NCBI GenBank assembly: GCA_020381345.1
Contig: GCA_020381345.1_3636.1
DNA length: 64,000 bases
Direction: 5' to 3' (one strand)
From: a phage
In this document: one piece after another, positions 24,906 through 56,410 of the stretch
How the letters are laid out: every line of letters begins with the position of its first letter
Position numbering within the stretch: position 1 is the first letter of the stretch
Position numbers and translations under genes: made by a program
The notes under the pieces: model-generated
What the model was told of the DNA's origin: nothing
Databases searched by the model: none
What the model saw: the letters and a program-made list of their open reading frames with translations, nothing else

Positions 24906-25106
24906 TTAGTAATACTCCCAACATGCCCCATCTTCAGACGGCTTGACGCGCTTACCTTTATGGTCAACATAGGTATAGCCACAACCTTCACAAATAACAG
25001 GTGCTGCATAGCCTTCCTTCCACTGATCCTCAGTGATCAGACCTTCCAAATCTTTGCAGTCAAAGCCAAACAACTCTTCAGAGCAATCTTTACAAAAATC
25101 AGCCAT
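24906..25106 (-). CDS. small zinc-ribbon protein
   Basis: 66 aa with CxxC...CxxC (CKDCSEE...CEGCGYTY). Confidence 0.4.
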   Translation of the reverse strand: MADFCKDCSEELFGFDCKDLEGLITEDQWKEGYAAPVICEGCGYTYVDHKGKRVKPSEDGACWEYY

Positions 25107-41307: not shown

Positions 41308-42633
41308 ATGAGTAAAACCAAATTAGAACTTACCTGGATAGGTAAAAACGAGCGCAAAAAGTTAGAGCCGCACATTTTGTTAGAAGATTCTAGCAAATCT
41401 TACCACAGCCAGAAAGTGACCGAAAACGATATTTTTGATAATAAACTGATTTTTGGAGATAACTTATTAGCATTGAAGGCGCTAGAGCAAGAGTATGCAG
41501 GCAAAGTGAAGTGTGTTTACATAGACCCGCCATTCAATACCGGGAGGGCTTTTGAGCACTACGATGATAGCCTGGAGCATTCCATTTGGCTGGGCTTAAT
41601 GAGGGATAGGTTAGAAATAATTCGTAATCTTCTAAGTGATGATGGGGTAATATTCGTTCACTTAGATGATTGCGAAATGGCGTATTTAAAAGTTTTGATG
41701 GACGAGATTTTTGGTCGTGCAAATCAGTTAAATACCATATCGATGACCACAAATTCCCCTTCGGGATTTAAGGCAACAGGAGCCACAGTTTTCTCCACAG
41801 CAAACTTTTTGCTTGTATATGCAAAAGATCGCACCCAGAAACCGCTTAACAAAATCTATATACCTAAAGGGTATGATACAGGATATAACAAATACCTATT
41901 AAACCCGGATGACCATTATAAAAATTGGACGTGGTGCGGTATTGCCGATGCGTTTGCAAAGGCCAATGGCTATAAAGATGCAAAAGAAGCCAAGAAAAAA
42001 CTGCCTGATACATTCGATGATGAATTAGCACAATTCGCAATTGATAATGCAGAACGTGTATTTCAATCTGTTGCAATTGGCGGTGGTGCTAAAATAAAGA
42101 GAAAAGAAACTATCGAGAAGTCAAAGAAAGATAGGGATAAGGTTTATGTACATCCAAATGAAGATGTTGAAGGATTTTATATCGCAAATGGTAGGCAAAT
42201 GGTCTTTTACTCCAACAGGCTTTTGGAAATTGACGGTGATATGCAACCTGCGGAACTAATAACTGATGTTTGGACAGACATTAGTTGGAATGGAATAGCA
42301 AATGAAGGCGGCGTTAGTTTCAAAAATGGGAAAAAACCAGAAGCGCTTTTGAAGCGAATTTTCGAAATGTGTACGCGAGAAGGCGATTTGGTATTGGATT
42401 CATTCGGTGGTTCGGGAACTACTGCTGCTGTAGCTCACAAGATGAAAAGACGTTGGATCTCCATCGAGATCGGTGATCATTGCCATACCCATATTATTCC
42501 GCGCTTGGAAAAAGTGATCGATGGGGAAGATCAAGGTGGTATTTCTAAGTCTGTAAACTGGCAAGGTGGTGGTGGCTTCCGTTATTACAAACTTGCCCCG
42601 ACCTTAATTGCGAAAGATAAGTCTGATCAATAA
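41308..42633 (+). CDS. DNA N6-adenine (or N4-cytosine) methyltransferase, beta class
   Basis: Catalytic motif IDPPFNT precedes the AdoMet motif DSFGGSGTT (beta-class order). Confidence 0.7.
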   Translation: MSKTKLELTWIGKNERKKLEPHILLEDSSKSYHSQKVTENDIFDNKLIFGDNLLALKALEQEYAGKVKCVYIDPPFNTGRAFEHYDDSLEHSIWLGLMRDRLEIIRNLLSDDGVIFVHLDDCEMAYLKVLMDEIFGRANQLNTISMTTNSPSGFKATGATVFSTANFLLVYAKDRTQKPLNKIYIPKGYDTGYNKYLLNPDDHYKNWTWCGIADAFAKANGYKDAKEAKKKLPDTFDDELAQFAIDNAERVFQSVAIGGGAKIKRKETIEKSKKDRDKVYVHPNEDVEGFYIANGRQMVFYSNRLLEIDGDMQPAELITDVWTDISWNGIANEGGVSFKNGKKPEALLKRIFEMCTREGDLVLDSFGGSGTTAAVAHKMKRRWISIEIGDHCHTHIIPRLEKVIDGEDQGGISKSVNWQGGGGFRYYKLAPTLIAKDKSDQ

Positions 42634-43842: not shown

Positions 43843-43870
43843 GCCCTGCCCGAAAGGGTGGGGCTTTTTG
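43843..43870 (+). terminator. rho-independent terminator (repeated element, copy 1)
   Basis: GCCCTGCCCGAAAGGGTGGGGC then TTTTT; identical 22-mer at 54265. Confidence 0.55.
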
Positions 43871-43887
43871 CATTAGGAGACAGCAAA

Positions 43888-44652
43888 TTGAAATTTATCT
43901 ATAAAGAACACTACCACAAAGGTGTTGTGTGGAGTCTATTTGACGGATCTGGCGGTGCAGTCATTGACTGGGCAAAAGCTGGATATCTGTGCCTGTGCTT
44001 TAACGCAGAAGGTGCTGACCACGGCAGTTATGCAGAGGTGATCACCGATCATCCAAATATTCACTATGTAGATTATTGGATTGATCCATGGTTCCCTCAG
44101 GAAACTTTCTGCATGTACCCAGCTCCGGACTTTGTTCTTGCATTTCCTCCGTGCACCCACTTAGCGGTGTCAGGTGCTGCACACTTTAAGAAGAAGCTGG
44201 CTAAGGACCCGCTGATCCAGATTAATGCTGTAAAGGATGCTCGGGTTGCAGAAGAGTTGGGAGAGATTTACGATTGCCCGTGGCATGTAGAGAATCCTGT
44301 GGGTGTTATGTCCACACTGTGGCGCAAACCTGATTACCGTTTTCACCCTTCTGACTATGGCGGGTATTTACCGGAGGATGATGTAAACCCCTGGTTTCCT
44401 GAATTTATAGCTCCACGTGATGCCTATCCAAAAATAACTTGCGGCTGGATAGGTAATGGATTTATAATCCCGGCCACAAAACCTGTCCCGCAAATAGTTG
44501 ACGCGGTTAGCGGGTATTCCATGCAACACGCCAAGCTGGGTGGAAAGAGTGCAAGAACGAAGATGATCCGAAGCCTCACACCACGTGGCTGGGCAAAAGC
44601 CGTATTCTTAGCAAACGAGCCTGTAGTAAGGAGCAGAATTAATGGGAAGTAA
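43888..44652 (+). CDS. compact DNA cytosine-5 methyltransferase-like protein
   Basis: Motif I LFDGSGG (FxGxGG), motif IV FPPCTHLAVSGA (PC), motif VI HVENPVG (ENV); TTG start after GGAGA RBS proposed because the track start lies inside the terminator hairpin; only ~255 aa so target-recognition region is minimal. Confidence 0.45.
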   Translation: MKFIYKEHYHKGVVWSLFDGSGGAVIDWAKAGYLCLCFNAEGADHGSYAEVITDHPNIHYVDYWIDPWFPQETFCMYPAPDFVLAFPPCTHLAVSGAAHFKKKLAKDPLIQINAVKDARVAEELGEIYDCPWHVENPVGVMSTLWRKPDYRFHPSDYGGYLPEDDVNPWFPEFIAPRDAYPKITCGWIGNGFIIPATKPVPQIVDAVSGYSMQHAKLGGKSARTKMIRSLTPRGWAKAVFLANEPVVRSRINGK

Positions 44653-46720
44653 ATTTATGGCATCTGCATACAACCGTTTCGGTGAGCCAAACCCGAAAGC
44701 AACTAAGTATAAAAGTGGGGGAAGTGTGAAACGAGACTATCGTGATGAAAAAGAGGTTGAAACTGTAGAGACTGTTTTAGAAAATACTAAAATTGTCCCT
44801 GTTCCACAACAAAATATCGGTCTGATGGCTGCACAATATTTTGGTGTGCGATCAGCATTGTCTCAAGAAGACGGTGTGACAGTTACTGCAACATATTTCC
44901 CATATTACGACCGCTACGGAAATCTGTCAGGTTTCAAAAAGCGTGACTGGACGATTCCTAAAGAGCAAAGGGGCCATTTCTCAGTTGTTGGCATAGTAAA
45001 GGCTAACTCCCAGATGTTTGGTCAAAAGCTGTGTGCATCTTCCAACAACCGTAAGCAGATTAATGTTTGTGAGGGAGAAGGTGATGTTATTGCAGCATGG
45101 CAGGCTGCATATCAGATACAAGTAAAAGGGATTCTCACCAACGCTAAAGCCCCGGCAAAGGTGAAACAGTGGGCTAAAGAGGTCCAGGACGGGATCGATG
45201 CAGTTATCAACGGGGGTGATCTGGCAGGAAAACCCTGCCTGCCTTTTGTTGGAATTAACTGTGGATGTGCAAACGCAGTAGACACTTTTGCAAACAATGA
45301 GAAATTTATCCGTAGCTACGGAACAGTGGTCCTTGCAATGGACAACGATGCAGCTAACGAGGTAGAGAAGCAAAAACACGTTATCAAAGGTGTTGAAGCC
45401 ACACATAATATCGCGGCATTTTTGATGGCGGATAACGTTTACCACGTAGAATATCCTGGTGAAGTAAACGATCCTGACGGTGTAAAAGATATCCGTGACA
45501 TGCTGAAGGCTAAAAAGCTGGAAGATATTGTAAACATGTTCCGGCATCCTGTTAAGTATGTGCCTGATGCTGTGTCGGATTTAGAAGACTTCTCTATCGA
45601 ATCTTTGCGGAAAAAGACTTCCAACGGGGTAGATATTAGCGCAGAGTTCCCAAAACTGCAAAAAATGCTAAAAGGCTTGCACAAAGGGACACTCGTAATG
45701 CTTACAGGTCCATCAGGGGGTGGTAAAACAACTGTAGCTAAAAAACTGGAACACTGTATTGCAAGATACTTAATGGACCCGACATGCCCGAAGGCCGATG
45801 ACTACGAAGAAGATGATCGTCTATGCATGATCCATCTTGAGGAGGACCCAGAGGAAGCAATTAACTCCTTGTATGCAAACCAGTTAGGGTTTGATGTTAA
45901 AGAGTTTGTTGAAGATCCTAGCCAGTTTTTAACTGATCAAGAACACGCAGAGATTCACCAATCATGGGCAAAAGCTGGAAAAATCAAAGTGTTCAAACAT
46001 TTCGGATCTATTCCGGTGGACGAGTTGATTACCAAGCTTAAGCAAATGGTTTGCCTGTACCATTGTCGTTATATTGTGCTGGATCACCTGTCCATGGTAA
46101 TTTCAGGTCTTAATGTTAAGGATGAGCGAAAAGAACTGGACATAGCTATGACCCAACTGGCTGCGTTTTGTAAGCAGTTTAATGTGTTTATCTTGGTGAT
46201 CGCTCACCTCAAACGTACAGAGATTGTGCCTCCTAAAGACAAGGATGGTAACCCGTTACCTTTCTGGTATCCTGTGCGAAAAGAGAATTTGCGAGGATCG
46301 GCTGGGCTTGAACAGTTGAGTTGGGTAGTCATAGGTGTCGAGGCCGAAGAAATGGTGGATCGTTCTCGTGGGCGTGTCCGTTTAGTAGGTCTTAAAAACC
46401 GTCCAGCAAAAACATTGGGTATTGCAGACACTTTGGTTATGGACCCACATACAGGTAAGTTCCATGATGCCAGTAATTGGTACTGGGACAAAGAAATGCA
46501 AATGTTTACAGATGGAGAAGGTGGGGAGGTTGTTTGGAGACCTCAGGCTATGTTTGAGGATCAGGAGCATGCAGTTGTAGAAACACCTATGGGCAAGGTT
46601 GTGGCTGATAAGGTTGTAACTCCTACTGTTAAGCCTGTTGACACGCAGGAAGACCTCCAGTACGATGATCCGTCCTCTGACCATGTTCCTGGTTTTGAGG
46701 ATGATGAAACACCTTTTTAA
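44642..46720 (+). CDS. bifunctional TOPRIM primase / DnaB-type helicase (T7 gp4-like) lacking N-terminal zinc ribbon
   Basis: TOPRIM Glu (VCEGEGDVIA) and DxD (LAMDNDAANE); Walker A LTGPSGGGKTT; acidic C-terminal tail ending FEDDETPF. Confidence 0.7.
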   Translation: MGSKFMASAYNRFGEPNPKATKYKSGGSVKRDYRDEKEVETVETVLENTKIVPVPQQNIGLMAAQYFGVRSALSQEDGVTVTATYFPYYDRYGNLSGFKKRDWTIPKEQRGHFSVVGIVKANSQMFGQKLCASSNNRKQINVCEGEGDVIAAWQAAYQIQVKGILTNAKAPAKVKQWAKEVQDGIDAVINGGDLAGKPCLPFVGINCGCANAVDTFANNEKFIRSYGTVVLAMDNDAANEVEKQKHVIKGVEATHNIAAFLMADNVYHVEYPGEVNDPDGVKDIRDMLKAKKLEDIVNMFRHPVKYVPDAVSDLEDFSIESLRKKTSNGVDISAEFPKLQKMLKGLHKGTLVMLTGPSGGGKTTVAKKLEHCIARYLMDPTCPKADDYEEDDRLCMIHLEEDPEEAINSLYANQLGFDVKEFVEDPSQFLTDQEHAEIHQSWAKAGKIKVFKHFGSIPVDELITKLKQMVCLYHCRYIVLDHLSMVISGLNVKDERKELDIAMTQLAAFCKQFNVFILVIAHLKRTEIVPPKDKDGNPLPFWYPVRKENLRGSAGLEQLSWVVIGVEAEEMVDRSRGRVRLVGLKNRPAKTLGIADTLVMDPHTGKFHDASNWYWDKEMQMFTDGEGGEVVWRPQAMFEDQEHAVVETPMGKVVADKVVTPTVKPVDTQEDLQYDDPSSDHVPGFEDDETPF

Positions 46721-46778
46721 TGTTTAACAAAGAGTGGGAGGGGTAGTACAACCGCCTCCCCTTTAAGGAGAACTGTAT

Positions 46779-49202
46779 ATGAGCATGTGGTCGTTCGATT
46801 TTGAGTCATCCGGTTTACTGGAAGACCCAGATCTTTATTATCACTGCGGTCTGTTTAAAGAGCTGAATAAGAACCGTTTTATGCTGTTCCTTCCTCTAAA
46901 TGACCGCACACACTACTCCGAGGAGGATATAGAAAAGGCTAAGAACTTCATTCTGGCAAAGAAAACTCTTTATAAAGATTTTGAAGTTCGCATAGCAGAT
47001 TTTTCGGAGTTGGAAGGTTGGCTTACAGGCAATTCCGACTGGTCACCAACAGCTTTGAACTGCCATAACTGCTACAGTTATGACTTTATGCTGATGGAAA
47101 GATTATCCGGTATTCATTTTGACATGTTCCGTGATCCTAAATGCATGGGGACTATCAACGACCACCAGGTTAACCTGTTTGATACGTTGGCGATGAGTCG
47201 AATCTTGTGGCCTGATCGCCCTTTACCAAAAGGTTGTCCGGACTCTGTATTCAACCCGGTCACTAAGAAAATGCAGCCTGTTGGTCCTCACGGCCTTATG
47301 GCATGGGGCTATGCTCTTGGTAACCAGAAAGTTCAAATTGATGACTGGCGCGATCTTCCGTTGTGGAAGTATGTGGATCGTGTATTTGAGGACGTTATCA
47401 TCCAGGAGCTGCTCTGGAAAGAACTGGTAGCGGAATCAAAAGGTGTATTCTACGGCAAGTCTGACATGCAGAACTTTATGTACGATCCTGCCAAAGAGAA
47501 GCCAAAAGGGTTCAAGAAGATCACCTGGAAGAACGCATTACGCCGAGGCATGCTGCAGCACTTCCTGATGGAGCTGCAGGCCCGTCAGGGTGTGTATTTC
47601 GACATAGACGGGGCTATTGCTTTACGTGACCGCTGTGATGCGTGGATGAAAGAGATCGCTGATCGTGTTGAACCTCAACTTCCTTTAAAAGAGTTATCAA
47701 TATCTCAGCGGCCTAAATTCCCTGAAAAGCCGTTCAACCAAGATGGGACAATTTCCAATAATGGCTGGAAATGGTTAAAAGATAAGCTTGGCTATCCTGT
47801 AGATATGAGCGCTTTAGAGTTCAAAGCCCCGCCTAAGCGAGCATTTACCTCCACAGGAGATGTCAGTAAGATGGGGATAAAATGGTGTGAAGAGATGGGC
47901 TGCAAAGACCCCGATAAGATGGCTGATTTCTTGAGAGGCTATATTAAGGGCACCTCAACACCACAACCTTTACCTAAAGAGCTAATGGATCAGGCAATAA
48001 GTGATCTACAGCAGAAGCGAATGCCGGACTGCAAGATACCTATGAAAATCAGCAATCAGGACGACATTAAGCGATACCTGATCAGTGCTGGTTGGCTTCC
48101 GACAATGTGGAGAACTAAGGATGTAACTAAAGACAGCAAGAAGAAAGCTCTACCTGATGCAGATGTTGATGCACGAGTATATGCATATATGGACGAGCTT
48201 TTAGAGTCAGAGTATTGTGACCTGATTATCAACTTCTGGAACAAAACTGATGCTAAGTTCCAGACAACCGTGCACAAGTTCCGAAGCTTTCCTAACTCCG
48301 AAAGGATTAAAAAGGAAGTATTCGGGAAAATACGTAGAAAAGCCAGGGCACTTATTACTTCTCCGCAACTGAAAGATACGTTTGGACACCTATGTCCGAA
48401 TCTTGAAAAATTGAACGGAGAGATGGCTAAAGATATCGTCTTGTGGTTATCATTGCGAAACCGCAGATCGGTCCTTGATCCAATCAAGGAGGATAAGGTT
48501 GATACTGGTCTTCTTAATCACCCACGCTTGAAGATTGACCATAAGCTTCCTGCTAAAAGTTCTGGGCTAACAAACACTTCCAGACAGAAACACAGTATTT
48601 GTGCAAACATGCCTAAACCATCTCCTAAAGTGGTTATGGGTAAAGAGATGCGTAGTCTATGGGGTGTTCCTCCGGGATACTTTGAGATCGGTATTGACGG
48701 GTCCAACTTAGAGCAGCTTATCGGAGCTTGGGGTGCCTTTGAGTTCGACAACGGCTTGTATTATGATGTTGTAAGTAACGGGGACGCACACCAAAACAAT
48801 GCTGAGGCATATACAAAAGTAGCAGGTAGAGAGGTGTCTCGTAACGACGGTAAACCTATCACGTATGGGGTTATGTACGGGGCACAAAAAGATAAAGTTG
48901 CAGACATGCTGGATATCTCTCCAGAGTTGGGACAAAGGGTAATCGATGCACTCTGGGATGCCAACCCTGGTCTTAAGGGGCGCAAAGAGGATCTGGAGAA
49001 ATTCTGGGAAGCAACAGGTAAGAAGTTTATCTACTCTTTTGATGGTCATGCTATCTGGACCCGATCTAAACACTCTTTACTTAATGCATACCAACAGAAT
49101 GGTGGTGCATCGCTGTGTGACTTAGTTGGGATACTCATGCACCACCAAATGGTGAAGCGTGGGTGGTACGATGAAGGTGTTCGTCGTATTATTTATTACC
49201 AT
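46779..49202 (+). CDS. DNA polymerase, family A (T7 gp5-like), exon 1
   Basis: Exo I FDFESSG, Exo II-like NCHNCYSYD, motif A EIGIDGSNLE, motif B KPITYGVMYGAQ; ORF stops 1 codon after the His of motif C (..IIYYH K stop). Confidence 0.7.
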
Positions 49203-49478
49203 AAATAACATTGTGGCTTCATAGAGTAATCTATGTCGAATAACCTCTTTAACTGCGGGAAGCCTAAACCTTATGGCAAGGTAATCCGCAACGAAGCGCT
49301 CAAAAGAGCGAACGCTCAGAGGCCATTCCGAAAGGAAGTAGACCAGCAAGTGCGGTCGAAATGGGAGGATTCCTGTGGTTGCTTATCATAGGAATATGAG
49401 ATGGTCCGATCCTACGTGAAAACGTATGGCTATGCACGTAATGGTGCGGGGTAGCTTAACGACCTACCTGAACTATTG
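49203..49478 (+). ncRNA. group I self-splicing intron (no ORF) interrupting DNA polymerase motif C
   Basis: P-like AACTGCGGGAAG (49251), Q-like AATCCGCAAC (49283), R-like GCTCAGAGGCC (49314) in canonical order; P/Q complementary; upstream exon ends in T, intron ends in G; three in-frame stops; joining exons restores ..YYHDEYQLQV (H-D-E motif C). Confidence 0.6.
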
Positions 49479-49832
49479 GATGAGTACCAACTTCAGGTCC
49501 CTGACACACCTAAGTATAAGACTGTGTACACCTTCGACACAATTGAAGAACTGGAAGCATTTAAGGCAGAGCAGGAAGCCAAACTTCATGTGTTCGACGG
49601 TCATAAGTACAAAAAGGCACGCAAGGATGAAAACGGAAACGAGGTGGTTGACAGAGACGGAAACACGGTGTACGATCCTATCCTGAACGATGACGGAAAG
49701 CTTGAACTTATCTGGAGCCCTGTGGGCGAGATGGTGGTACATTGCTTCTGGCAAGCTTCTAAAATGATGGGAGTCCCGTTCCAGATCACAGGTGAATACT
49801 TGTGTGGTCGTAACTGGGGTGATTGTCACTAA
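49479..49832 (+). CDS. DNA polymerase, family A, exon 2 (C-terminal segment)
   Basis: Same frame as exon 1; begins GAT GAG (D-E of HDE); C-terminus ..CGRNWGDCH resembles T7 pol C-terminus ..GPNWAICH. Confidence 0.6.
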   Translation, partial: DEYQLQVPDTPKYKTVYTFDTIEELEAFKAEQEAKLHVFDGHKYKKARKDENGNEVVDRDGNTVYDPILNDDGKLELIWSPVGEMVVHCFWQASKMMGVPFQITGEYLCGRNWGDCH

Positions 49833-49881
49833 TGTAAACTATCAGCACAGGGAGGTGCTGTTGAGCAAAGAGGAGACTTTT

Positions 49882-50166
49882 ATGGTAGTAGAGCCAACAA
49901 AAACATTTACATCCATGACCATTCCTGTTATTATGCAGGTGGAGTGTGTTCAGGTATCTCAAGTGTGGCCTGGCACCAAAATCCCAACAGGGCCTGATTT
50001 CTTTCAGGTTGGGAAAGTGTACAATGTCTGGAAGGCACCAGATTGTTACCCTTTCATTAAAGATGACCGTGGGATGCTGTGGTATCTTGGAAATGACTTG
50101 ACACTGCACCTTGGGAATGCTATTATTGCAGTATTCAGACTTAACAAGAAGGAGACCGATCAATGA
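49882..50166 (+). CDS. small protein, member of tandem paralog family (KDD.G..W motif)
   Basis: AAGAGGAG RBS; motif FFQVGKVYNV ... PFIKDDRGMLWYL. Confidence 0.4.
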   Translation: MVVEPTKTFTSMTIPVIMQVECVQVSQVWPGTKIPTGPDFFQVGKVYNVWKAPDCYPFIKDDRGMLWYLGNDLTLHLGNAIIAVFRLNKKETDQ

Positions 50167-50390
50167 CAACTTTGGTTAAAGCTACTTTTGTAGAAGAAAA
50201 GATGACAGACCTGTCCTTCTTTAAAGAAGGAAAGACCTACGAGGTTTATTACGATAAAAATCGTGCAAACAAGATGATTAAAGACGAGGAAGGGATTGCC
50301 TGGTTTATCTCCCATCTGGCAAACGGTGAGTATCATATCTACGGAACCGCCCTGCTTGCCAAGTTTGTAGCTGTTGAAGAGGGCCTATGA
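50163..50390 (+). CDS. small protein, paralog family member
   Basis: AAGGAGA RBS; FFKEGKTYEV ... MIKDEEGIAWFI. Confidence 0.4.
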   Translation: MTTLVKATFVEEKMTDLSFFKEGKTYEVYYDKNRANKMIKDEEGIAWFISHLANGEYHIYGTALLAKFVAVEEGL

Positions 50391-50581
50391 AAGTAAAGTA
50401 TCTGGCTGAGGGTATGAGTAGGTATTTCACCCTTGGTGAAGAATATTGGCCCTTTACAAGCAACGGCGATGTCTACGTGAAAGATAATTTCGGCACGCCG
50501 TGGTTTCTGCACTCTAATGGGTTGGGATATTCCATTTACTGCGGTGCAGTGAACAACACAACTCTTGCAGAGTTCGTTTAG
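50387..50581 (+). CDS. small protein, paralog family member
   Basis: FTLGEEYWPF ... YVKDNFGTPWFL. Confidence 0.35.
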   Translation: MKVKYLAEGMSRYFTLGEEYWPFTSNGDVYVKDNFGTPWFLHSNGLGYSIYCGAVNNTTLAEFV

Positions 50582-50591
50582 AGGAGGTAGG

Positions 50592-50963
50592 ATGTTAGTA
50601 AAAGGTACCCACACAGTCAAACAACGTATCGAAGTTGAGATCGATGACTGCGAGCTGAAGCATATTTTACGGTCATGTTCTAACGTTTTGCTACTCAGTA
50701 TTCTCCAGGAGCGAGCGGAGAACGAGTTCTTAAATGCATTGGCAGGCCGTCCTGGTGACTTCTGCGTGCGTAAACGTGAAGGTCATAAGTCATGGTTGTG
50801 GGAAATCGATGCCGACTGGGATTACCACAAAAATGAGGGTATAGATGAGCCTATTCGTGAACTGACGGACAAAGAGATTCAGATGTACAATGAAGTTTGT
50901 CATTGGGCAACACGCCAACAAATTTACCTCGACCCTGTGTGGCTGATTGAAAATAGCCATTGA
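50592..50963 (+). CDS. hypothetical protein
   Basis: GAGGAGG RBS before ATG 50592. Confidence 0.4.
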   Translation: MLVKGTHTVKQRIEVEIDDCELKHILRSCSNVLLLSILQERAENEFLNALAGRPGDFCVRKREGHKSWLWEIDADWDYHKNEGIDEPIRELTDKEIQMYNEVCHWATRQQIYLDPVWLIENSH

Positions 50964-50988
50964 CAAGAAGTAAGATTAGATATAAGAT
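50960..50988 (+). promoter_or_regulatory. sigma70-like promoter
   Basis: TTGACA-17-TAAGAT upstream of 51040. Confidence 0.35.
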
Positions 50989-51039
50989 GCTTCACACAAA
51001 CAGAGCGTTGATTTTTAAATAACTAAGGAGACTGCCAAG

Positions 51040-51294
51040 ATGAAAATTACTTTGAAGCCAGAATGCGTTGCAAATGACCGAGCTTTTAAAGATTGCACAG
51101 TCGGTGCAATTTATGAAGCAGAGTTTTGTGAGAACCCTCTGGTAAAAGCCCTTCTGGAAGAAGGGGCCCCTTTATCACAAGAAGAGATCGATGAGCTGGA
51201 AAACTCAGCACAGTGCCTTACCTTTAAAGATGATGAAGGAGACTCTGTCTGGTGCACTGTTAATGAAGTCGTTTTTGTAAAACCTGAACATTAA
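51040..51294 (+). CDS. small protein, paralog of 51358..51630
   Basis: AAGGAGA RBS; KPECVANDRAFKDCTVGAIYEA ... TFKDDEGDSVWCTV. Confidence 0.45.
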   Translation: MKITLKPECVANDRAFKDCTVGAIYEAEFCENPLVKALLEEGAPLSQEEIDELENSAQCLTFKDDEGDSVWCTVNEVVFVKPEH

Positions 51295-51297
51295 TAC

Positions 51298-51335
51298 TTG
51301 ACAACAGCGATAGGACCTAATACAATGGTCCTATC
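51298..51335 (+). promoter_or_regulatory. sigma70-like promoter with overlapping 9-bp-arm palindrome (operator-like)
   Basis: TTGACA-17-TACAAT; inverted repeat GATAGGACC / GGTCCTATC flanks the -10. Confidence 0.45.
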
Positions 51336-51357
51336 AAAACGAAAGGGGACCACAACA

Positions 51358-51630
51358 ATGACCAAACAATACCAACGAATTAAAGCCAAGGTTAAGCCAG
51401 ACTATCTGGAGAAGGACTCTGCTTTTCGGGACTGCACAGCTGACAAAGTTTACACAGGGGCCGTCCTGTTGAACGATGAACTTGAAGTATATATTCTTGG
51501 TAAAGAGGCCACTATTAAGGACGACCAAGGCGATTATGTTTGCTGCACCACACGGGAGCTAGAAATCTTAGAATACTTCGGTGAAATCTTCACCTCTCTT
51601 GATGATTACTTAGATGACGAGGAAGCGTAA
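51358..51630 (+). CDS. small protein, paralog of 51040..51294
   Basis: KPDYLEKDSAFRDCTADKVYTGA ... TIKDDQGDYVCCTT; promoter TTGACA-17-TACAAT with palindrome upstream. Confidence 0.45.
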   Translation: MTKQYQRIKAKVKPDYLEKDSAFRDCTADKVYTGAVLLNDELEVYILGKEATIKDDQGDYVCCTTRELEILEYFGEIFTSLDDYLDDEEA

Positions 51631-52019
51631 TGAAAAATATTTGGGATATTGATATCTTTGAAGCCTCTAAGCTTGACGGTGCTGATGGAGTGATTATGGT
51701 GTCTGATGGCAAGGCAACACTAACTTCCGGAGATATCATCTATGCCTTGGACGAGCTGGCGCTTCTGAAGTCTACCGGTAACACTCTAGAGGAGCGTCTT
51801 CAAGGCTTCGCCTTCAAAGAAGGCACAAATACCGCCATGATGTGCACCACACGGACAGTTCAGGTGGGTAACGGTGTCTATATGATCATTGCTGTGTGTC
51901 CTAAATTCAGCAACGTCAACAAAGATGATACTGACGCTGTCAACGATGTGGTTGTTCTCTTCGTTGGTGACGCTATGGCAGATCTGATGAATGCAGGAGA
52001 GGCAGCAAATGAAGACTGA
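51630..52019 (+). CDS. hypothetical protein
   Basis: GAGGAAG RBS; 129 aa. Confidence 0.4.
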   Translation: MKNIWDIDIFEASKLDGADGVIMVSDGKATLTSGDIIYALDELALLKSTGNTLEERLQGFAFKEGTNTAMMCTTRTVQVGNGVYMIIAVCPKFSNVNKDDTDAVNDVVVLFVGDAMADLMNAGEAANED

Positions 52020-52311
52020 AAACATCACCCCCGCAGGGTTCTTAAAAGTATACCGTGAACTGCTATACACTACAGAGGACAGTATTCTAGAGTATCCAGA
52101 GTATCTTTTGCTGTATAAGTATCTGCAGGAGGCTGGTGAAAATCTGCCAGTTAGTGCAGAAGGTGGTCCGAACTGGATATACAGCGCATGGAGAAAGGTT
52201 GACATTCTCCCAGACCCAGGTAAAGATATGGTAGTTTGGCAGCTTATCAACAACATCGGGATTCCAATCTTTGATGAAGCTGTTAAAATCTATTTTGAAC
52301 TTGACGATTAA
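52009..52311 (+). CDS. hypothetical protein
   Basis: GGAG RBS before ATG 52009. Confidence 0.35.
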   Translation: MKTENITPAGFLKVYRELLYTTEDSILEYPEYLLLYKYLQEAGENLPVSAEGGPNWIYSAWRKVDILPDPGKDMVVWQLINNIGIPIFDEAVKIYFELDD

Positions 52312-52328
52312 TATCAGGAGACCTTAAG

Positions 52329-52574
52329 ATGGCTGAAGTAGTTGCTCGCGCAGGACAGAAAGTACGTTGTGTGGAAGTAGGTTTTGGTGGCAAAGGGTGT
52401 CAAAACTTGACTCAAGGTAAGGAATACGCTGTTATTTCTGGTGGTGGCGACGAGAGTATTGTGTTCGAGGGCCACATCCTGGATGCTGAAAACTTTGAAA
52501 TCTTTGACGACGATGGAGATCCGATCACCTGCCTGCTGGACGGGAATTGGGGAACTTTCGAAGTGATTGGCTAA
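52329..52574 (+). CDS. small protein, paralog family member
   Basis: CAGGAGA RBS; LTQGKEYAVI ... IFDDDGDPITCLL. Confidence 0.4.
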   Translation: MAEVVARAGQKVRCVEVGFGGKGCQNLTQGKEYAVISGGGDESIVFEGHILDAENFEIFDDDGDPITCLLDGNWGTFEVIG

Positions 52575-52657
52575 CAAATACCTATTGTAATTTACAGAAG
52601 GGGATGCTAAAATAGTGTCTCCTTTTATGTTGTTCAAATAAAATCGGAGATTCCATA

Positions 52658-53023
52658 ATGGAACAAATGAACGATCAAGCGTCGGTTGCGATGAACGAGC
52701 AAGAACAACCTCAAGAATTTTTCTTAGGGTTAAGTAAAGATCAAGTGTCTCTTCTGCTAGTGCTTTCTTCTTTCATGGGAAGACTTCAGGAGCTCACACA
52801 ACAGCCAGAGGCTGAACAATTATTCCAAGCTTTGCGTGAAGAAGAAAAATATCGTCGTTTGGACTATGCCTTAGGTTGGGTAGCTCAACAACGGGATATG
52901 CTGATGGCCCTCTCTGGGACCACAAGTTTTGCAATGGGCCTGTTGGCTCAAGTTCAGGACAAATTAATTCAAGCAGGGTTCGCACACACGGCAAGCACTA
53001 ACGAAGAACAAGGAGACAAATAA
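52658..53023 (+). CDS. hypothetical protein
   Basis: GGAGA RBS; 121 aa. Confidence 0.4.
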   Translation: MEQMNDQASVAMNEQEQPQEFFLGLSKDQVSLLLVLSSFMGRLQELTQQPEAEQLFQALREEEKYRRLDYALGWVAQQRDMLMALSGTTSFAMGLLAQVQDKLIQAGFAHTASTNEEQGDK

Positions 53024-54249
53024 TGAGCGTTATTCAACAATTCGCTAACCCAATGAATCCGCGTGAAACTGTTTTACTAGCTCACGGCATGATTAAACGT
53101 GTTAGCATCAAGCCTATTAAAGGTGCTGATCCTACAACAGGTATTAAAACCACTGTGTGGCAAGGTAAGAAAATTGAATCCAGCCACACCATCTCTTTAC
53201 TGATTTCTGAACTGGATTCCTCTGATAACCTGCTTCAAGGTGGTGAAGAAGTCTGGATCAGCATGGGTGATAAGCTGCTTAAACCAGGTCATCAAGACTC
53301 TGTCTCTGTTAAGATTGATGACAAGTGGGAAACCGTAACGCCAGGATGGATCGTAAATATCCCTTTGAAGGCAAACGAGCATAACGGTAAGACCTATTAC
53401 AAGGGCTCACTGGCTAAGATGGTTAAGCTGGGTGCAGGAGAGGCTCCAGCAGCGACTCAGCAGCAAAAACAGCAACAAGGTGCACAATCACAAGGCCAGA
53501 AGCAGAAACCTCAGCAGAATGCCAATCAGGACGTTTTACGCATCTATGGTGATGTGACTCAGATTGTTGGCAACGTGGTTACTGTTAATGACCACAAGAT
53601 TGGCGAAGGTGCTATGGTTGTAACTGATGAGCAGCTTAAAGACCTGGTGGTAGGTGGTCGTGTTGCAGCCATTGTTGACAAAGACACCGGAAACATTATC
53701 AGTGGTTTCAAGGCCTATCCCCCTAAGGCAGAGAACGGCACTCAAGGATCTGGTGGCAAGCGTAAATCCTCTTACGACCCTATCGGTGTGGAAACGGGGC
53801 ATAGCATCAATGCGTTGCAGATCATCCTGGATCGCGGGTTTAAGGTAGACGACCCACTGGGCGTGGCTAAAACACTGCACGTAGTCACCATTGAGCTTAA
53901 GAAAGAGTATGCTCAAGCCACCAACCGAACTGAAGATGAAGTAGGTGCCAGTGTCGGTAATGCGGTGTTGAACGCTTGTCGCCGTATTGACAAGAAAACG
54001 AAAGTTGATGATTTTGCAGCGGCAATTACTGCAGAAGCAAAAGATGTCTTGACTAATCTGGCTGAACCGTTGTACGATTGGATCAAGAACGGTGCTGGGT
54101 CAACCGACCATCAAGAACCTCAGGCTGCCAAACAGGAAGCAGCTCCACAGCAAAACACTGTAGACGCTCCTCCTGTAAATGATGCGGAAGATGACCCAAT
54201 GGATCAGAATCCAGCACAGTACGCCTTTGATGATGACATCCCTTTTTAA
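53023..54249 (+). CDS. ssb: single-stranded DNA-binding protein with acidic C-terminal tip
   Basis: C-terminus ...AQYAFDDDIPF matches the canonical SSB tail (DDDIPF); Gln/Gly-rich linker; AAGGAGA RBS. Confidence 0.6.
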   Translation: MSVIQQFANPMNPRETVLLAHGMIKRVSIKPIKGADPTTGIKTTVWQGKKIESSHTISLLISELDSSDNLLQGGEEVWISMGDKLLKPGHQDSVSVKIDDKWETVTPGWIVNIPLKANEHNGKTYYKGSLAKMVKLGAGEAPAATQQQKQQQGAQSQGQKQKPQQNANQDVLRIYGDVTQIVGNVVTVNDHKIGEGAMVVTDEQLKDLVVGGRVAAIVDKDTGNIISGFKAYPPKAENGTQGSGGKRKSSYDPIGVETGHSINALQIILDRGFKVDDPLGVAKTLHVVTIELKKEYAQATNRTEDEVGASVGNAVLNACRRIDKKTKVDDFAAAITAEAKDVLTNLAEPLYDWIKNGAGSTDHQEPQAAKQEAAPQQNTVDAPPVNDAEDDPMDQNPAQYAFDDDIPF

Positions 54250-54264
54250 CAATTAGTTAACATA

Positions 54265-54292
54265 GCCCTGCCCGAAAGGGTGGGGCATTTTT
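54265..54292 (+). terminator. rho-independent terminator (repeated element, copy 2)
   Basis: GCCCTGCCCGAAAGGGTGGGGC then ATTTTTG, after SSB gene. Confidence 0.55.
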
Positions 54293-56215: not shown

Positions 56216-56410
56216 ATGAGAAACAAGAAAGAGCTTTACTCTGGTGAGTGGATCAACGATCAACAGGTGGGAGAGGTAACCTGCTTCCGATGTTTTACCA
56301 GGTACAATCTTAAAACTGCACCAAAAAGTGTTCCAAAGACTGATGGTTATTACATAAAAGAACCTTATTGCCCAAAATGTAAATGCCGATTATACTGGAG
56401 TAACCTGTAA
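56216..56410 (+). CDS. small zinc-ribbon protein
   Basis: GGGAGAG RBS; CFRC ... CPKCKC. Confidence 0.4.
   Translation: MRNKKELYSGEWINDQQVGEVTCFRCFTRYNLKTAPKSVPKTDGYYIKEPYCPKCKCRLYWSNL

What the first reader, a model, noticed from the sequence alone, without database searches (positions are those of the whole stretch)
44642..54249. T7-style replisome design: acidic Phe-terminated tails on both primase-helicase and SSB, and a primase with no zinc-binding domain
The primase-helicase ends ..GFEDDETPF and the SSB-like protein ends ..AFDDDIPF. In T7 the acidic C-terminal tails of gp4 and gp2.5 (both ending in Phe) dock on the polymerase. Unlike T7 gp4, this primase has TOPRIM motifs but no N-terminal Cys4 zinc ribbon, so template recognition may be supplied in trans; small zinc-ribbon proteins are encoded at 56216 and 24906.
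Basis: partly seen in the sequence, partly recalled or inferred. Interest (0 to 1): 0.45.

Follow-up and report, generated by a model that had tools for sequence, protein, structure and literature searches.

The report
T7-type phage replisome, zinc-finger-less primase
This rV5-like E. coli phage has a T7-type replication module whose primase-helicase has no zinc finger and whose single-strand-binding-like protein ends in an exact copy of the host SSB docking tip; this is a moderately interesting variant of a known design, and the proposed helper zinc-ribbon proteins are not supported.

Summary
The window is an rV5-like Vequintavirus. ORF 44642-46720 ends GFEDDETPF. ORF 53023-54249 ends AFDDDIPF. 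These are the only two of 328 long reading frames that end in PF.

The primase-helicase matches the 56-kDa, zinc-finger-less form of T7 gp4 (Foldseek E 1e-29), and T7 gp5 is the polymerase's only solved relative, so "T7-style" holds. This was already published for the related phage ICP1.

No zinc-binding domain exists. The N-terminus has no Cys and no upstream frame, and a ZBD profile finds nothing in about 132 kb of genome. The loss is shared by about 100 related clusters, while the TOPRIM acidic residues stay invariant, so the primase is probably still active.

Both zinc-ribbon candidates also occur in T4-like, T5-like and FelixO1-like phages, so a trans role is unsupported.

About one third of sequenced relatives carry a 15-residue extension after the terminal Phe, brought in by a homing endonuclease.

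Verdict: new variant of a known kind, moderate interest.

The parts
44642..46720 (+). gp4-like primase-helicase, 692 aa, with no zinc-binding domain
   Evidence: PHROG 239 DNA primase/helicase, 7.5e-160, matching from profile position 86. Pfam DnaB_C and AAA_25. PDB T7 gp4, 5.7e-16. AF2 plus Foldseek best hits are T7 gp4 5ikn and 1q57, E 1e-29.
44642..44761 (+). N-terminal 40 residues: basic, Cys-free, predicted disordered; this segment sits where T7 has its Cys4 ZBD
   Evidence: No Cys. pLDDT below 50 for residues 1-36. Aligned against the T7 ZBD it is a gap.
44762..45556 (+). RNA-polymerase (TOPRIM) primase domain, residues 41-305, with a two-helix insertion at 146-189 that T7 lacks
   Evidence: pLDDT about 90. 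E144, E146, D234, D236 and D283 are invariant in 25 sequences down to 43% identity. They align to T7 EGE(157), D207xD209 and D237.
45599..46546 (+). SF4 (DnaB/gp4-type) helicase domain, residues 320-635
   Evidence: Pfam DnaB_C 3.1e-13 and AAA_25 5.4e-15. T7 gp4 helicase alignment. Foldseek.
46556..46717 (+). Disordered acidic C-terminal tail of the primase-helicase; the last 9 residues, GFEDDETPF, are at 46691-46717
   Evidence: pLDDT below 50 for residues 639-692. A terminal [DE]x[TSE]PF is conserved across 120 clusters.
46779..49202 (+). Family-A, T7 gp5-like DNA polymerase, exon 1 (ends ...IIYYH)
   Evidence: PHROG 17 and 8888. PDB hits are T7 gp5 only, 7e-16. Spliced product is 925 aa.
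49203..49478 (+). Group I intron interrupting polymerase motif C
   Evidence: Rfam RF00028 at 49193-49428, 64.7 bits against a gathering score of 50. The 5' exon ends in U, the intron ends in G, and splicing restores YHDEYQLQV, compared with T7 VHDEIQV. RudolfGeigy annotates the polymerase as a join of two pieces.
49479..49832 (+). DNA polymerase exon 2 (DEYQLQV...NWGDCH, then stop)
   Evidence: PHROG 8888 profile positions 185-295, 1.6e-58. The C-terminus aligns to T7 ...NWAICH.
52658..53023 (+). 121-aa acidic helical protein of unknown function whose stop overlaps the start of the SSB-like gene
   Evidence: ORF list. PHROG 7310, unknown function. Annotated 'putative SSB' in JLBYU08 without supporting evidence.
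53023..54249 (+). SSB-like protein, 408 aa: OB fold (residues 1-140), Q-rich disordered linker (141-169), small beta domain (170-236), four-helix bundle (253-355), disordered acidic tail (359-408)
54223..54246 (+). Tip AFDDDIPF; the last 7 residues are identical to the E. coli SSB C-terminal tip
   Evidence: The last nine residues of E. coli SSB are MDFDDDIPF (PMC3632105). P407 and F408 are invariant in the family.
54265..54292 (+). Intrinsic-terminator-like hairpin plus T run directly after the SSB-like gene. This is the allele without the homing-endonuclease insertion.
   Evidence: 61 phage records share this junction; 32 instead carry a 15-codon extension plus an endonuclease gene.
56216..56410 (+).
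   Evidence: Pfam PF23903 Phage_zn_bind_2, 7e-22. Homologues in T4-like and jumbo phages. No match to the gp4 ZBD profile.
24906..25106 (-). 66-aa Cys4 protein (second candidate); not linked to the primase
   Evidence: PHROG 2210, unknown function. 836 phage records carry it, mostly FelixO1-like and T5-like.

Best explanation
This is the replication module of an rV5-like myovirus, built on the T7 plan. It has a hexameric gp4-type primase-helicase, a gp5-type family-A polymerase (here split by a group I intron) and a phage-encoded OB-fold ssDNA-binding protein. No sliding clamp or clamp loader is annotated.

Shown:
- The homology and fold of the helicase-primase and the polymerase.
- The OB fold, linker and acidic tip of the 408-aa protein.
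- Conservation of both tails.
- Absence of any gp4-type zinc-binding domain in the gene or elsewhere in the genome.
- Loss of the ZBD across a large clade, with the TOPRIM metal-binding residues invariant.

Inferred:
- The two disordered acidic tails ending in Pro-Phe are docking peptides for basic or hydrophobic pockets on partner proteins. By analogy with T7, they couple helicase and SSB to the polymerase.
- Because the SSB-like tip is a copy of the host SSB tip, it can also engage the host's SSB-binding proteins.
- The primase domain is still catalytic and works without a ZBD. Template contact would come from the RNA-polymerase domain itself, perhaps helped by its clade-specific helical insertion or the basic N-terminal peptide. 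A separately encoded zinc ribbon is not the likely source.
For: - The window is 96-99% identical to Vequintavirus genomes.
- Primase-helicase: PHROG 239 at 7.5e-160; PDB T7 gp4 at 5.7e-16; AF2 plus Foldseek at 1e-29 to the T7 56-kDa form over about 570-590 columns.
- Polymerase: the only PDB hits are T7 gp5, 7e-16.
- A carefully annotated, near-identical genome lists no clamp, clamp loader, second primase or canonical SSB.
- The SSB-like gene sits 1-4 genes downstream of Toprim-DnaB_C plus PolA, even in relatives that are 29-33% identical.
- TOPRIM residues E144, E146, D234, D236 and D283 are invariant.
- The ZBD-less architecture is shared by 120 close clusters and by roughly the 100 nearest 50%-identity representatives out of 1.84 billion.
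- 48 of 97 distant full-length representatives end in F, Y or W.
- T7 precedent for tail-to-polymerase docking: PMC12339929.
- The ICP1 homologue is already described as a T7-like replisome: PMC7145576.
Against: - No binding or activity was measured. Tail-to-polymerase docking is analogy only.
- T7's front basic patch K587, K589, R590, R591 aligns to 'GKK' here, in a weakly aligned loop.
- T7's own ZBD-less 56-kDa form lacks template-directed primer synthesis (PMC2910064). A self-sufficient ZBD-less primase would therefore be unprecedented for this family.
- About one third of sequenced close relatives (32 against 61 records) make an SSB-like protein whose Phe is followed by 15 more residues. 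A free C-terminal Phe on this protein is therefore not strictly required for viability.
- Foldseek support for the OB fold is weak (E at least 0.02), and no sequence profile calls the protein an SSB.
Confidence: 0.6

Rival explanations
1. One reading: the ZBD-less primase receives template recognition in trans from a small phage zinc-ribbon protein (56216-56410 or 24906-25106).
For: - Both ORFs are real Cys4 proteins.
- In bacterial DnaG, crosstalk between primase subunits can regulate primer synthesis in trans (Corn et al. 2005, listed in the references of PMC2910064; that the ZBD of one subunit serves the catalytic domain of another is from my own knowledge of that paper).
- From my own knowledge, not checked here: separated T7 ZBD and RNA-polymerase-domain fragments cooperate in vitro.
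Against: - The 56216 protein has 75-77% identical homologues in T4-like phages (RB49, Phi1, GEC-3S) and in jumbo phages whose replication machinery is unrelated. It has no hit in the Vibrio phages (ICP1, 277E43-1) that share the ZBD-less primase.
- The 24906 protein is found in 836 records, mostly FelixO1-like and T5-like, and lies next to tail-fibre genes on the opposite strand.
- An HMM built from 18 gp4-type ZBDs scores nothing better than E 0.18 in 3262 six-frame ORFs from the window plus 132 kb of a sister genome.
Confidence: 0.05
2. Host-hijack model. The tails mimic the host SSB C-terminal tip so as to recruit the host's SSB-binding proteins. In particular they would recruit DnaG primase, which carries its own ZBD and binds the SSB tip through its C-terminal domain. 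Lagging-strand priming would then be done by the host enzyme, and the phage TOPRIM domain would serve mainly in helicase loading or as scaffold.
For: - The SSB-like tip FDDDIPF is identical to the E. coli SSB tip. [quoted passage not shown]
- The helicase tail DDETPF is a close variant.
- ZBD-less T7 gp4 cannot prime on templates.
- Residues in the T7 primase domain are needed for helicase loading (PMC9198812; title and abstract only).
Against: - The metal-binding TOPRIM residues and the N-terminal subdomain motifs are invariant over a deep clade. This argues that catalysis is under selection, unlike in metazoan Twinkle, which has helicase activity only because of sequence changes in its primase domain (abstract of PMC3610141).
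- The HEG-linked 15-residue extension would block pockets that need the terminal carboxylate, yet it is common.
- Distant phages with the same SSB-like family and the same DDDIPF tip do have a ZBD-containing primase-helicase. The tip is therefore not a compensation for ZBD loss.
Confidence: 0.2
3. The tails are mainly autoregulatory. They fold back onto the protein's own DNA-binding surface (the OB fold, or the helicase) and compete with ssDNA, as described for T7 gp2.5 and E. coli SSB. They would not be replisome docking peptides.
For: - Both tails are long, disordered and acidic.
- AlphaFold places the gp2.5 tail in its own positively charged binding groove, and tail deletion increases ssDNA affinity (PMC12339929).
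Against: - Electrostatic competition does not explain strict conservation of the terminal Pro-Phe and the exact host-type tip when the rest of the tail drifts freely.
- In the known systems the same tail does both jobs, so this is more a complement to the main explanation than an alternative.
Confidence: 0.1

Closest known systems
Bacteriophage T7 gp4 primase-helicase, especially its 56-kDa form (gp4B)
   Same: Same two-domain fold: TOPRIM RNA-polymerase domain plus SF4 helicase (Foldseek 1e-29 over about 570 columns at 22-23% identity). The catalytic acidic residues align. Both have an acidic C-terminal tail ending in Phe.
   Different: - T7 makes both a ZBD-containing 63-kDa form and a ZBD-less 56-kDa form. 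Here only a ZBD-less protein can be made.
- The tail ends DDETPF rather than SNDTDF.
- There is a 44-residue helical insertion in the TOPRIM domain and a 54-residue disordered tail.
Vibrio phage ICP1 ORF57/ORF58 replication module (Barth et al. 2019, NAR, PMC7145576)
   Same: - ORF57 is a 48% identical homologue. It also lacks a ZBD and ends DQDGDEPF.
- It is followed by a homologous PolA and, a few genes later, by a 388-aa protein ending DLDDSIPF.
- The published description calls this a T7-like replisome.
   Different: - ICP1's tail-bearing 388-aa protein (PHROG 2544) shows no detectable homology to the 408-aa protein beyond the tip.
- The passages of the paper retrieved here do not mention the missing ZBD or the tails.
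Bacterial SSB (E. coli SSB: OB fold, disordered linker, DDDIPF tip)
   Same: - A low-complexity disordered linker.
- The last 7 residues are identical to those of E. coli SSB.
   Different: - No Pfam SSB match.
- Two extra domains, a small beta domain and a four-helix bundle, lie between the OB fold and the tail.
- The oligomeric state is unknown.
T7 gp2.5 ssDNA-binding protein
   Same: A phage-encoded protein with an OB fold and an acidic tail ending in Phe, in a T7-type module. In T7 both tails dock on the polymerase.
   Different: - No sequence relationship (hhalign probability 0.2%).
- The gp2.5 tail ends DEDGDF.
Metazoan Twinkle (mitochondrial gp4-like helicase)
   Same: A gp4-like protein (Foldseek hits at about 1e-17). 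That metazoan Twinkle lacks the Cys4 zinc finger is from my own knowledge; it was not checked here.
   Different: Animal Twinkle has helicase activity only, because of sequence changes in its primase domain (abstract of PMC3610141). Here the catalytic primase residues are invariant.

Membership tests
T7 gp4-type bifunctional primase-helicase | C-terminal SF4 (DnaB/gp4) RecA-type helicase domain with Walker A and the H-motifs | tested here: met
   Pfam DnaB_C 3.1e-13 and AAA_25 5.4e-15. T7 gp4 helicase alignment, 5.7e-16. Foldseek.
T7 gp4-type bifunctional primase-helicase | TOPRIM RNA-polymerase domain with the conserved Glu, DxD and Asp metal ligands | tested here: met
   The Foldseek alignment to 1q57 and 5ikn spans the primase domain. 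E144, E146, D234, D236 and D283 are invariant. Pfam Toprim_2 and Toprim_4 are only sub-threshold, E 0.02-0.06.
T7 gp4-type bifunctional primase-helicase | N-terminal Cys4 zinc-binding domain (template recognition) | tested here: not met
   No Cys in residues 1-130 and no upstream frame. Residues 1-36 are disordered. A ZBD HMM finds nothing genome-wide.
T7 gp4-type bifunctional primase-helicase | Acidic C-terminal tail ending in an aromatic residue that contacts the polymerase | tested here: inconclusive
   The tail is present and conserved. Contact with the polymerase cannot be tested with these tools.
T7 gp4-type bifunctional primase-helicase | Template-directed oligoribonucleotide synthesis | not testable with these tools
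   Needs a biochemical assay. ZBD-less T7 gp4 lacks this activity (PMC2910064).
T7 gp2.5-like SSB | Sequence or profile homology to gp2.5 | tested here: not met
   hhalign probability 0.2%. No Pfam hit. gp2.5-like structures (DUF2815 4klk, Enc34 SSB) appear only as weak Foldseek hits, E 0.03-0.2.
T7 gp2.5-like SSB | OB fold plus an acidic C-terminal tail ending in Phe | tested here: met
Bacterial SSB family (PF00436) | SSB-type OB fold recognisable by profile | tested here: inconclusive
   [not shown]
Bacterial SSB family (PF00436) | Intrinsically disordered linker followed by the amphipathic tip DDDIPF | tested here: met
   Ends FDDDIPF. Consensus and E. coli sequence from PMC3632105. Residues 359-408 are disordered.
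Bacterial SSB family (PF00436) | ssDNA binding and homotetramer formation | not testable with these tools
T7 gp5-type replicative family-A DNA polymerase | PolA motifs A, B and C, with T7 gp5 as the closest solved relative | tested here: met
   The only PDB hits are T7 gp5, 7e-16. Motif C, YHDEYQ, is restored by splicing.
T7 gp5-type replicative family-A DNA polymerase | Thumb insertion that binds thioredoxin and the acidic tails | tested here: inconclusive
   A larger, Lys-rich insertion conserved with ICP1 lies at the same place, before the segment that aligns to T7 335-360. It has no sequence similarity to the T7 thioredoxin-binding domain.
T7 gp5-type replicative family-A DNA polymerase | Front basic patch K587, K589, R590, R591 | tested here: not met
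   It aligns to a shortened loop reading 'GKK' in both this phage and ICP1. The alignment is weak in this region.
Group I intron (Rfam RF00028) | Covariance-model score above gathering; 5' exon ends in U; intron ends in G; splicing restores the reading frame | tested here: met
   64.7 bits against 50. Junctions read from the sequence.

The most novel reading that the evidence does not exclude
A large, previously unremarked clade of gp4-like primase-helicases (Vequintavirinae, ICP1-like and many metagenomic phages) primes DNA synthesis with a TOPRIM domain alone, with no zinc-binding domain either in cis or in trans. This would overturn the working rule that TOPRIM primases need a ZBD for template-directed initiation. 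In the same module, a new OB-fold protein family carries the host SSB tip and ties the phage replisome to the host SSB interactome.
Probability: 0.35. Interest if true: 0.65.

Novelty: new variant of a known kind. Interest (0 to 1): 0.42.

Why it matters
In the T7 and DnaG paradigm, the zinc-binding domain is what lets a TOPRIM primase read its template. T7's own ZBD-less form cannot prime on a template.

Here the ZBD-less form is the only form made. It is shared by roughly a hundred sequence clusters, and the catalytic residues are invariant. Either these enzymes prime in a new way, or the phages obtain primers elsewhere. Both possibilities can be tested directly with E. coli phages that are already in culture (the BASEL collection, rV5) and with the well-studied phage ICP1.

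The 408-aa protein gives a function to a PHROG family of unknown function. It is also a clean example of a phage copying the host SSB docking tip.

Practically, the module's genes carry an intron here, and homing endonucleases and inteins in relatives. Automatic annotation splits or mislabels them.

Tried and rejected
- **Chance occurrence of the tails.** Rejected. Only these 2 of 328 long frames end in PF, and the tails are conserved.
- **A hidden ZBD.** Rejected. There is no upstream in-frame sequence, no Cys, and PHROG 239 matches only from profile position 86. A home-made HMM of 18 gp4-type ZBDs found nothing in six-frame ORFs of the window plus RudolfGeigy 1-132 kb (best E 0.18). Bacterial DnaG-type CHC2 fingers were not profiled, and the last 5 kb of the sister genome was not scanned.
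- **A second primase or a canonical SSB elsewhere in the genome.** None is annotated in RudolfGeigy. This rests on annotation, not on my own profile scan.
- **The SSB-like protein as a gp2.5 homologue.** Rejected by hhalign.
- **Homology between the SSB-like protein and ICP1 ORF68.** Only the 15-residue tip aligns.
- **Zinc ribbons as primase partners.** Rejected on distribution across phages.
- **The 15-residue extension APVGLQY... as a functional peptide module.** More simply explained as read-through into the ribosome-binding and start region of an inserted endonuclease gene. KpS8, however, has the extension without the endonuclease, which remains unexplained.
- **Literature searches.** Searches for ZBD-less phage primases and for rV5 replication proteins found nothing specific.
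- **Co-folding the polymerase with the tails.** Not possible with the single-chain tool.

Full report
**What the window is**

The 9.6-kb region is 96-99% identical to more than 100 Vequintavirus (rV5-like) genomes, including RudolfGeigy, FFH2, JLBYU08 and PDX. It also matches a set of records labelled 'Campylobacter phage'. Published annotations name 44642-46720 as DNA primase/helicase and 46779-49832 as DNA polymerase. They name 53023-54249 either 'hypothetical' or 'putative SSB'.

**Checking the observation**

ORF 44642-46720 (692 aa) ends GFEDDETPF. ORF 53023-54249 (408 aa) ends AFDDDIPF. Among 328 stop-to-stop frames of at least 60 aa in all six frames, these are the only two that end in PF. 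They are also the only two that end in Phe with at least 3 acidic residues in the last 8.

Both tails are under selection:
- In 22 SSB-like sequences down to 29% identity, P407 and F408 are invariant and the consensus tip is DFDDDIPF, while the linker before it is hypervariable.
- In 120 primase-helicase clusters down to 43% identity, nearly all end [DE]-x-[TSE]-P-F.

AF2 predicts both tails to be disordered: residues 359-408 and 639-692.

**Is the module T7-style?**

Yes, by homology.
- Primase-helicase: PHROG 239 at 7.5e-160, and T7 gp4 is the best solved relative at 5.7e-16. The AF2 model (pLDDT 78) superposes on the T7 56-kDa primase-helicase (5ikn, 1q57) over 570-590 columns, E 1e-29, with Twinkle next.
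- Polymerase: once spliced, its only PDB hits are T7 gp5, at 7e-16.
- A carefully annotated sister genome lists no clamp, clamp loader, second primase or canonical SSB.

The idea is not new for this lineage. Vibrio phage ICP1 ORF57 is a 48% identical homologue, and Barth et al. describe the ICP1 replisome as T7-like (PMC7145576).

**The missing zinc-binding domain**

The first 130 residues contain no Cys. Only four in-frame codons precede the ATG, and the upstream gene is a Dcm-like methylase. Aligned with T7 gp4, the ZBD region is simply absent, and the chain enters the RNA-polymerase domain after a disordered, basic stretch of about 40 residues.

A profile built from 18 gp4-type ZBDs found nothing better than E 0.18. 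It was run against 3262 six-frame ORFs from the window and from 132 kb of RudolfGeigy.

The loss is ancient and widespread:
- All 120 close clusters lack the ZBD.
- An exhaustive phmmer search of 1.84 billion representatives gave 191 hits. The nearest ~100 have no room for a ZBD.
- Cys4 motifs appear in only 17 of 147 listed proteins, all of them weaker hits with E above 1e-12.

The catalytic residues are invariant: E144/E146 (T7 E157 region), D234xD236 (T7 D207/D209), D283 (T7 D237), and K99, D102, K107 in the N-terminal subdomain. This is the opposite of animal Twinkle, which has helicase activity only because of sequence changes in its primase domain (abstract of PMC3610141). I therefore infer that catalysis is retained.

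T7's own ZBD-less 56-kDa protein lacks template-directed synthesis (PMC2910064). How these phages prime is a real open question.

**The zinc-ribbon-in-trans idea**

Both ORFs exist and carry CxxC...CxxC.
- The 56216 protein (Pfam PF23903) has 75-77% identical homologues in T4-like phages (RB49, Phi1, GEC-3S) and in jumbo phages. It has none in the Vibrio phages that share the ZBD-less primase.
- The 24906 protein occurs in 836 records, mostly FelixO1-like and T5-like.
- Neither resembles a primase ZBD.

There is no co-occurrence signal. I give this model about 5%.

**The SSB-like protein**

No Pfam family matches it, and its PHROG (4477) has no assigned function. It is unrelated in sequence to gp2.5 (hhalign probability 0.2%). 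The AF2 model (pLDDT 74) has five parts:
- a beta-barrel, residues 1-140
- a Q-rich disordered linker, 141-169
- a small beta domain, 170-236
- a four-helix bundle, 253-355
- a disordered tail, 359-408

Its last seven residues, FDDDIPF, are identical to the tip of E. coli SSB, whose last nine residues are MDFDDDIPF (PMC3632105). [quoted passage not shown]

In two distant metagenomic relatives (29-33% identity) the gene sits 1-4 genes downstream of a Toprim-DnaB_C protein and a PolA. This ties the family to the replication module. In those relatives the primase-helicase does have a Cys4 ZBD, so the tip is not a compensation for ZBD loss.

ICP1 has a non-homologous 388-aa protein ending DLDDSIPF in the syntenic position.

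**T7 tails compared with these tails**

T7 gp2.5 ends DEDGDF and T7 gp4 ends SNDTDF. The tails here are of the bacterial-SSB type, D-D-x-(I/T)-P-F.

The T7 docking surface K587/K589/R590/R591 (PMC12339929) aligns to a shortened 'GKK' loop in this polymerase. A larger Lys-rich insertion, conserved with ICP1, lies where T7 has its thioredoxin-binding domain. Docking on the phage polymerase is therefore plausible but unshown. Engagement of host SSB partners is equally plausible.

**Natural variation bearing on 'tails dispensable'**

In 32 close relatives, against 61 with the allele seen here, the stop codon after ...IPF is replaced by 15 codons (APVGLQYGKSRIHAL). These run into an inserted 207-aa PHROG-1035 'endonuclease VII' gene. 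Its Shine-Dalgarno-like GGTGGG and its ATG lie inside those 15 codons.

The same extension occurs on canonical phage SSBs and on some primase-helicases. It suggests a homing endonuclease that targets the conserved DDDIPF-coding 3' ends. Viable phages therefore exist in which this Phe is not C-terminal.

**Mechanism and likelihoods**

- Best explanation (0.6): a T7-plan replisome in which two Pro-Phe-tipped acidic tails act as docking peptides, and a ZBD-less but catalytically intact primase works without a separately encoded zinc ribbon.
- Rival, host hijack including DnaG recruitment: 0.2.
- Rival, mainly autoregulatory tails: 0.1.
- Rival, zinc ribbon in trans: 0.05.

**Verdict**

This is a new variant of a known kind. 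The architecture was known. The clade-wide ZBD loss with conserved catalytic residues, and the host-SSB tip on a new OB-fold family, were not described in the literature I could search. Interest is moderate (0.42).

Noticed in passing
window 49203-49478 (+): The DNA polymerase gene is interrupted in motif C by a 276-nt group I intron (Rfam RF00028, 64.7 bits). The 5' exon ends in U and the intron ends in G. Splicing joins ...IIYYH to DEYQLQV. Many GenBank records annotate the two exons as separate 'DNA polymerase' genes. Some relatives also carry an HNH endonuclease in this region.
   Followed up: yes
window 54247-54249 (stop of the SSB-like gene); L007 2525-3167 (Shigella phage CM1): There are two alleles at the stop codon. 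61 records match the window: stop, then terminator. 32 records replace the stop with 15 codons (APVGLQYGKSRIHAL) that overlap the ribosome-binding site and ATG of an inserted 207-aa 'endonuclease VII'-type gene. The same extension is found on canonical phage SSBs (Salmonella phage g341c, SCS31) and on some primase-helicases (KpS8, P0070, P0079). This points to a homing endonuclease that targets DDDIPF-coding gene ends. KpS8 has the extension without the endonuclease.
   Followed up: partly
homologues P0062, P0064, P0105, P0115 of window 44642-46720: Many relatives of the primase-helicase are 975-1025 aa because of inteins of 308-335 aa. One insertion site is in the Walker A loop, after window residue 359. 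The other is after residue 552 (RG|S). The inserts start with Cys and end ...GN. The window copy has no intein.
   Followed up: partly
window 52658-53023 (+): A 121-aa acidic helical protein (PHROG 7310, unknown function) has a stop codon that overlaps the start of the SSB-like gene, so the two may be translationally coupled. One GenBank record calls it a 'putative SSB' without visible support.
   Followed up: no
window 53779-54087 (+), residues 253-355 of the SSB-like protein: A confidently predicted four-helix bundle (pLDDT about 90-95) carries the family's most conserved residues (G255, G259, H260, N263, G312, L316, N317, C319, R320). Its function is unknown. Short family members keep the OB fold, this bundle and the tip, and lack the middle beta domain.
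   Followed up: no
window 45077-45208 (+), residues 146-189 of the primase-helicase: A two-helix insertion lies inside the TOPRIM domain, between the catalytic Glu and the DxD motif. It is absent from T7 and from the Vibrio 277E43-like subgroup. It could be an extra DNA- or protein-contact element in a primase that has no ZBD.
   Followed up: no
search hits H1, H2, H3, H5 and others (MG0656xx records): Sixteen GenBank records named 'Campylobacter phage', with host Campylobacter jejuni, are 96-99% identical to E. coli rV5-like phages across this region. The host attribution looks doubtful.
   Followed up: no
window 43858-44652 (+): A Dcm-like C5-cytosine methyltransferase gene overlaps the primase-helicase start by 11 nt. 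An N6-adenine methyltransferase lies at 41308-42633. DNA-modification genes are thus embedded in the replication operon.
   Followed up: no
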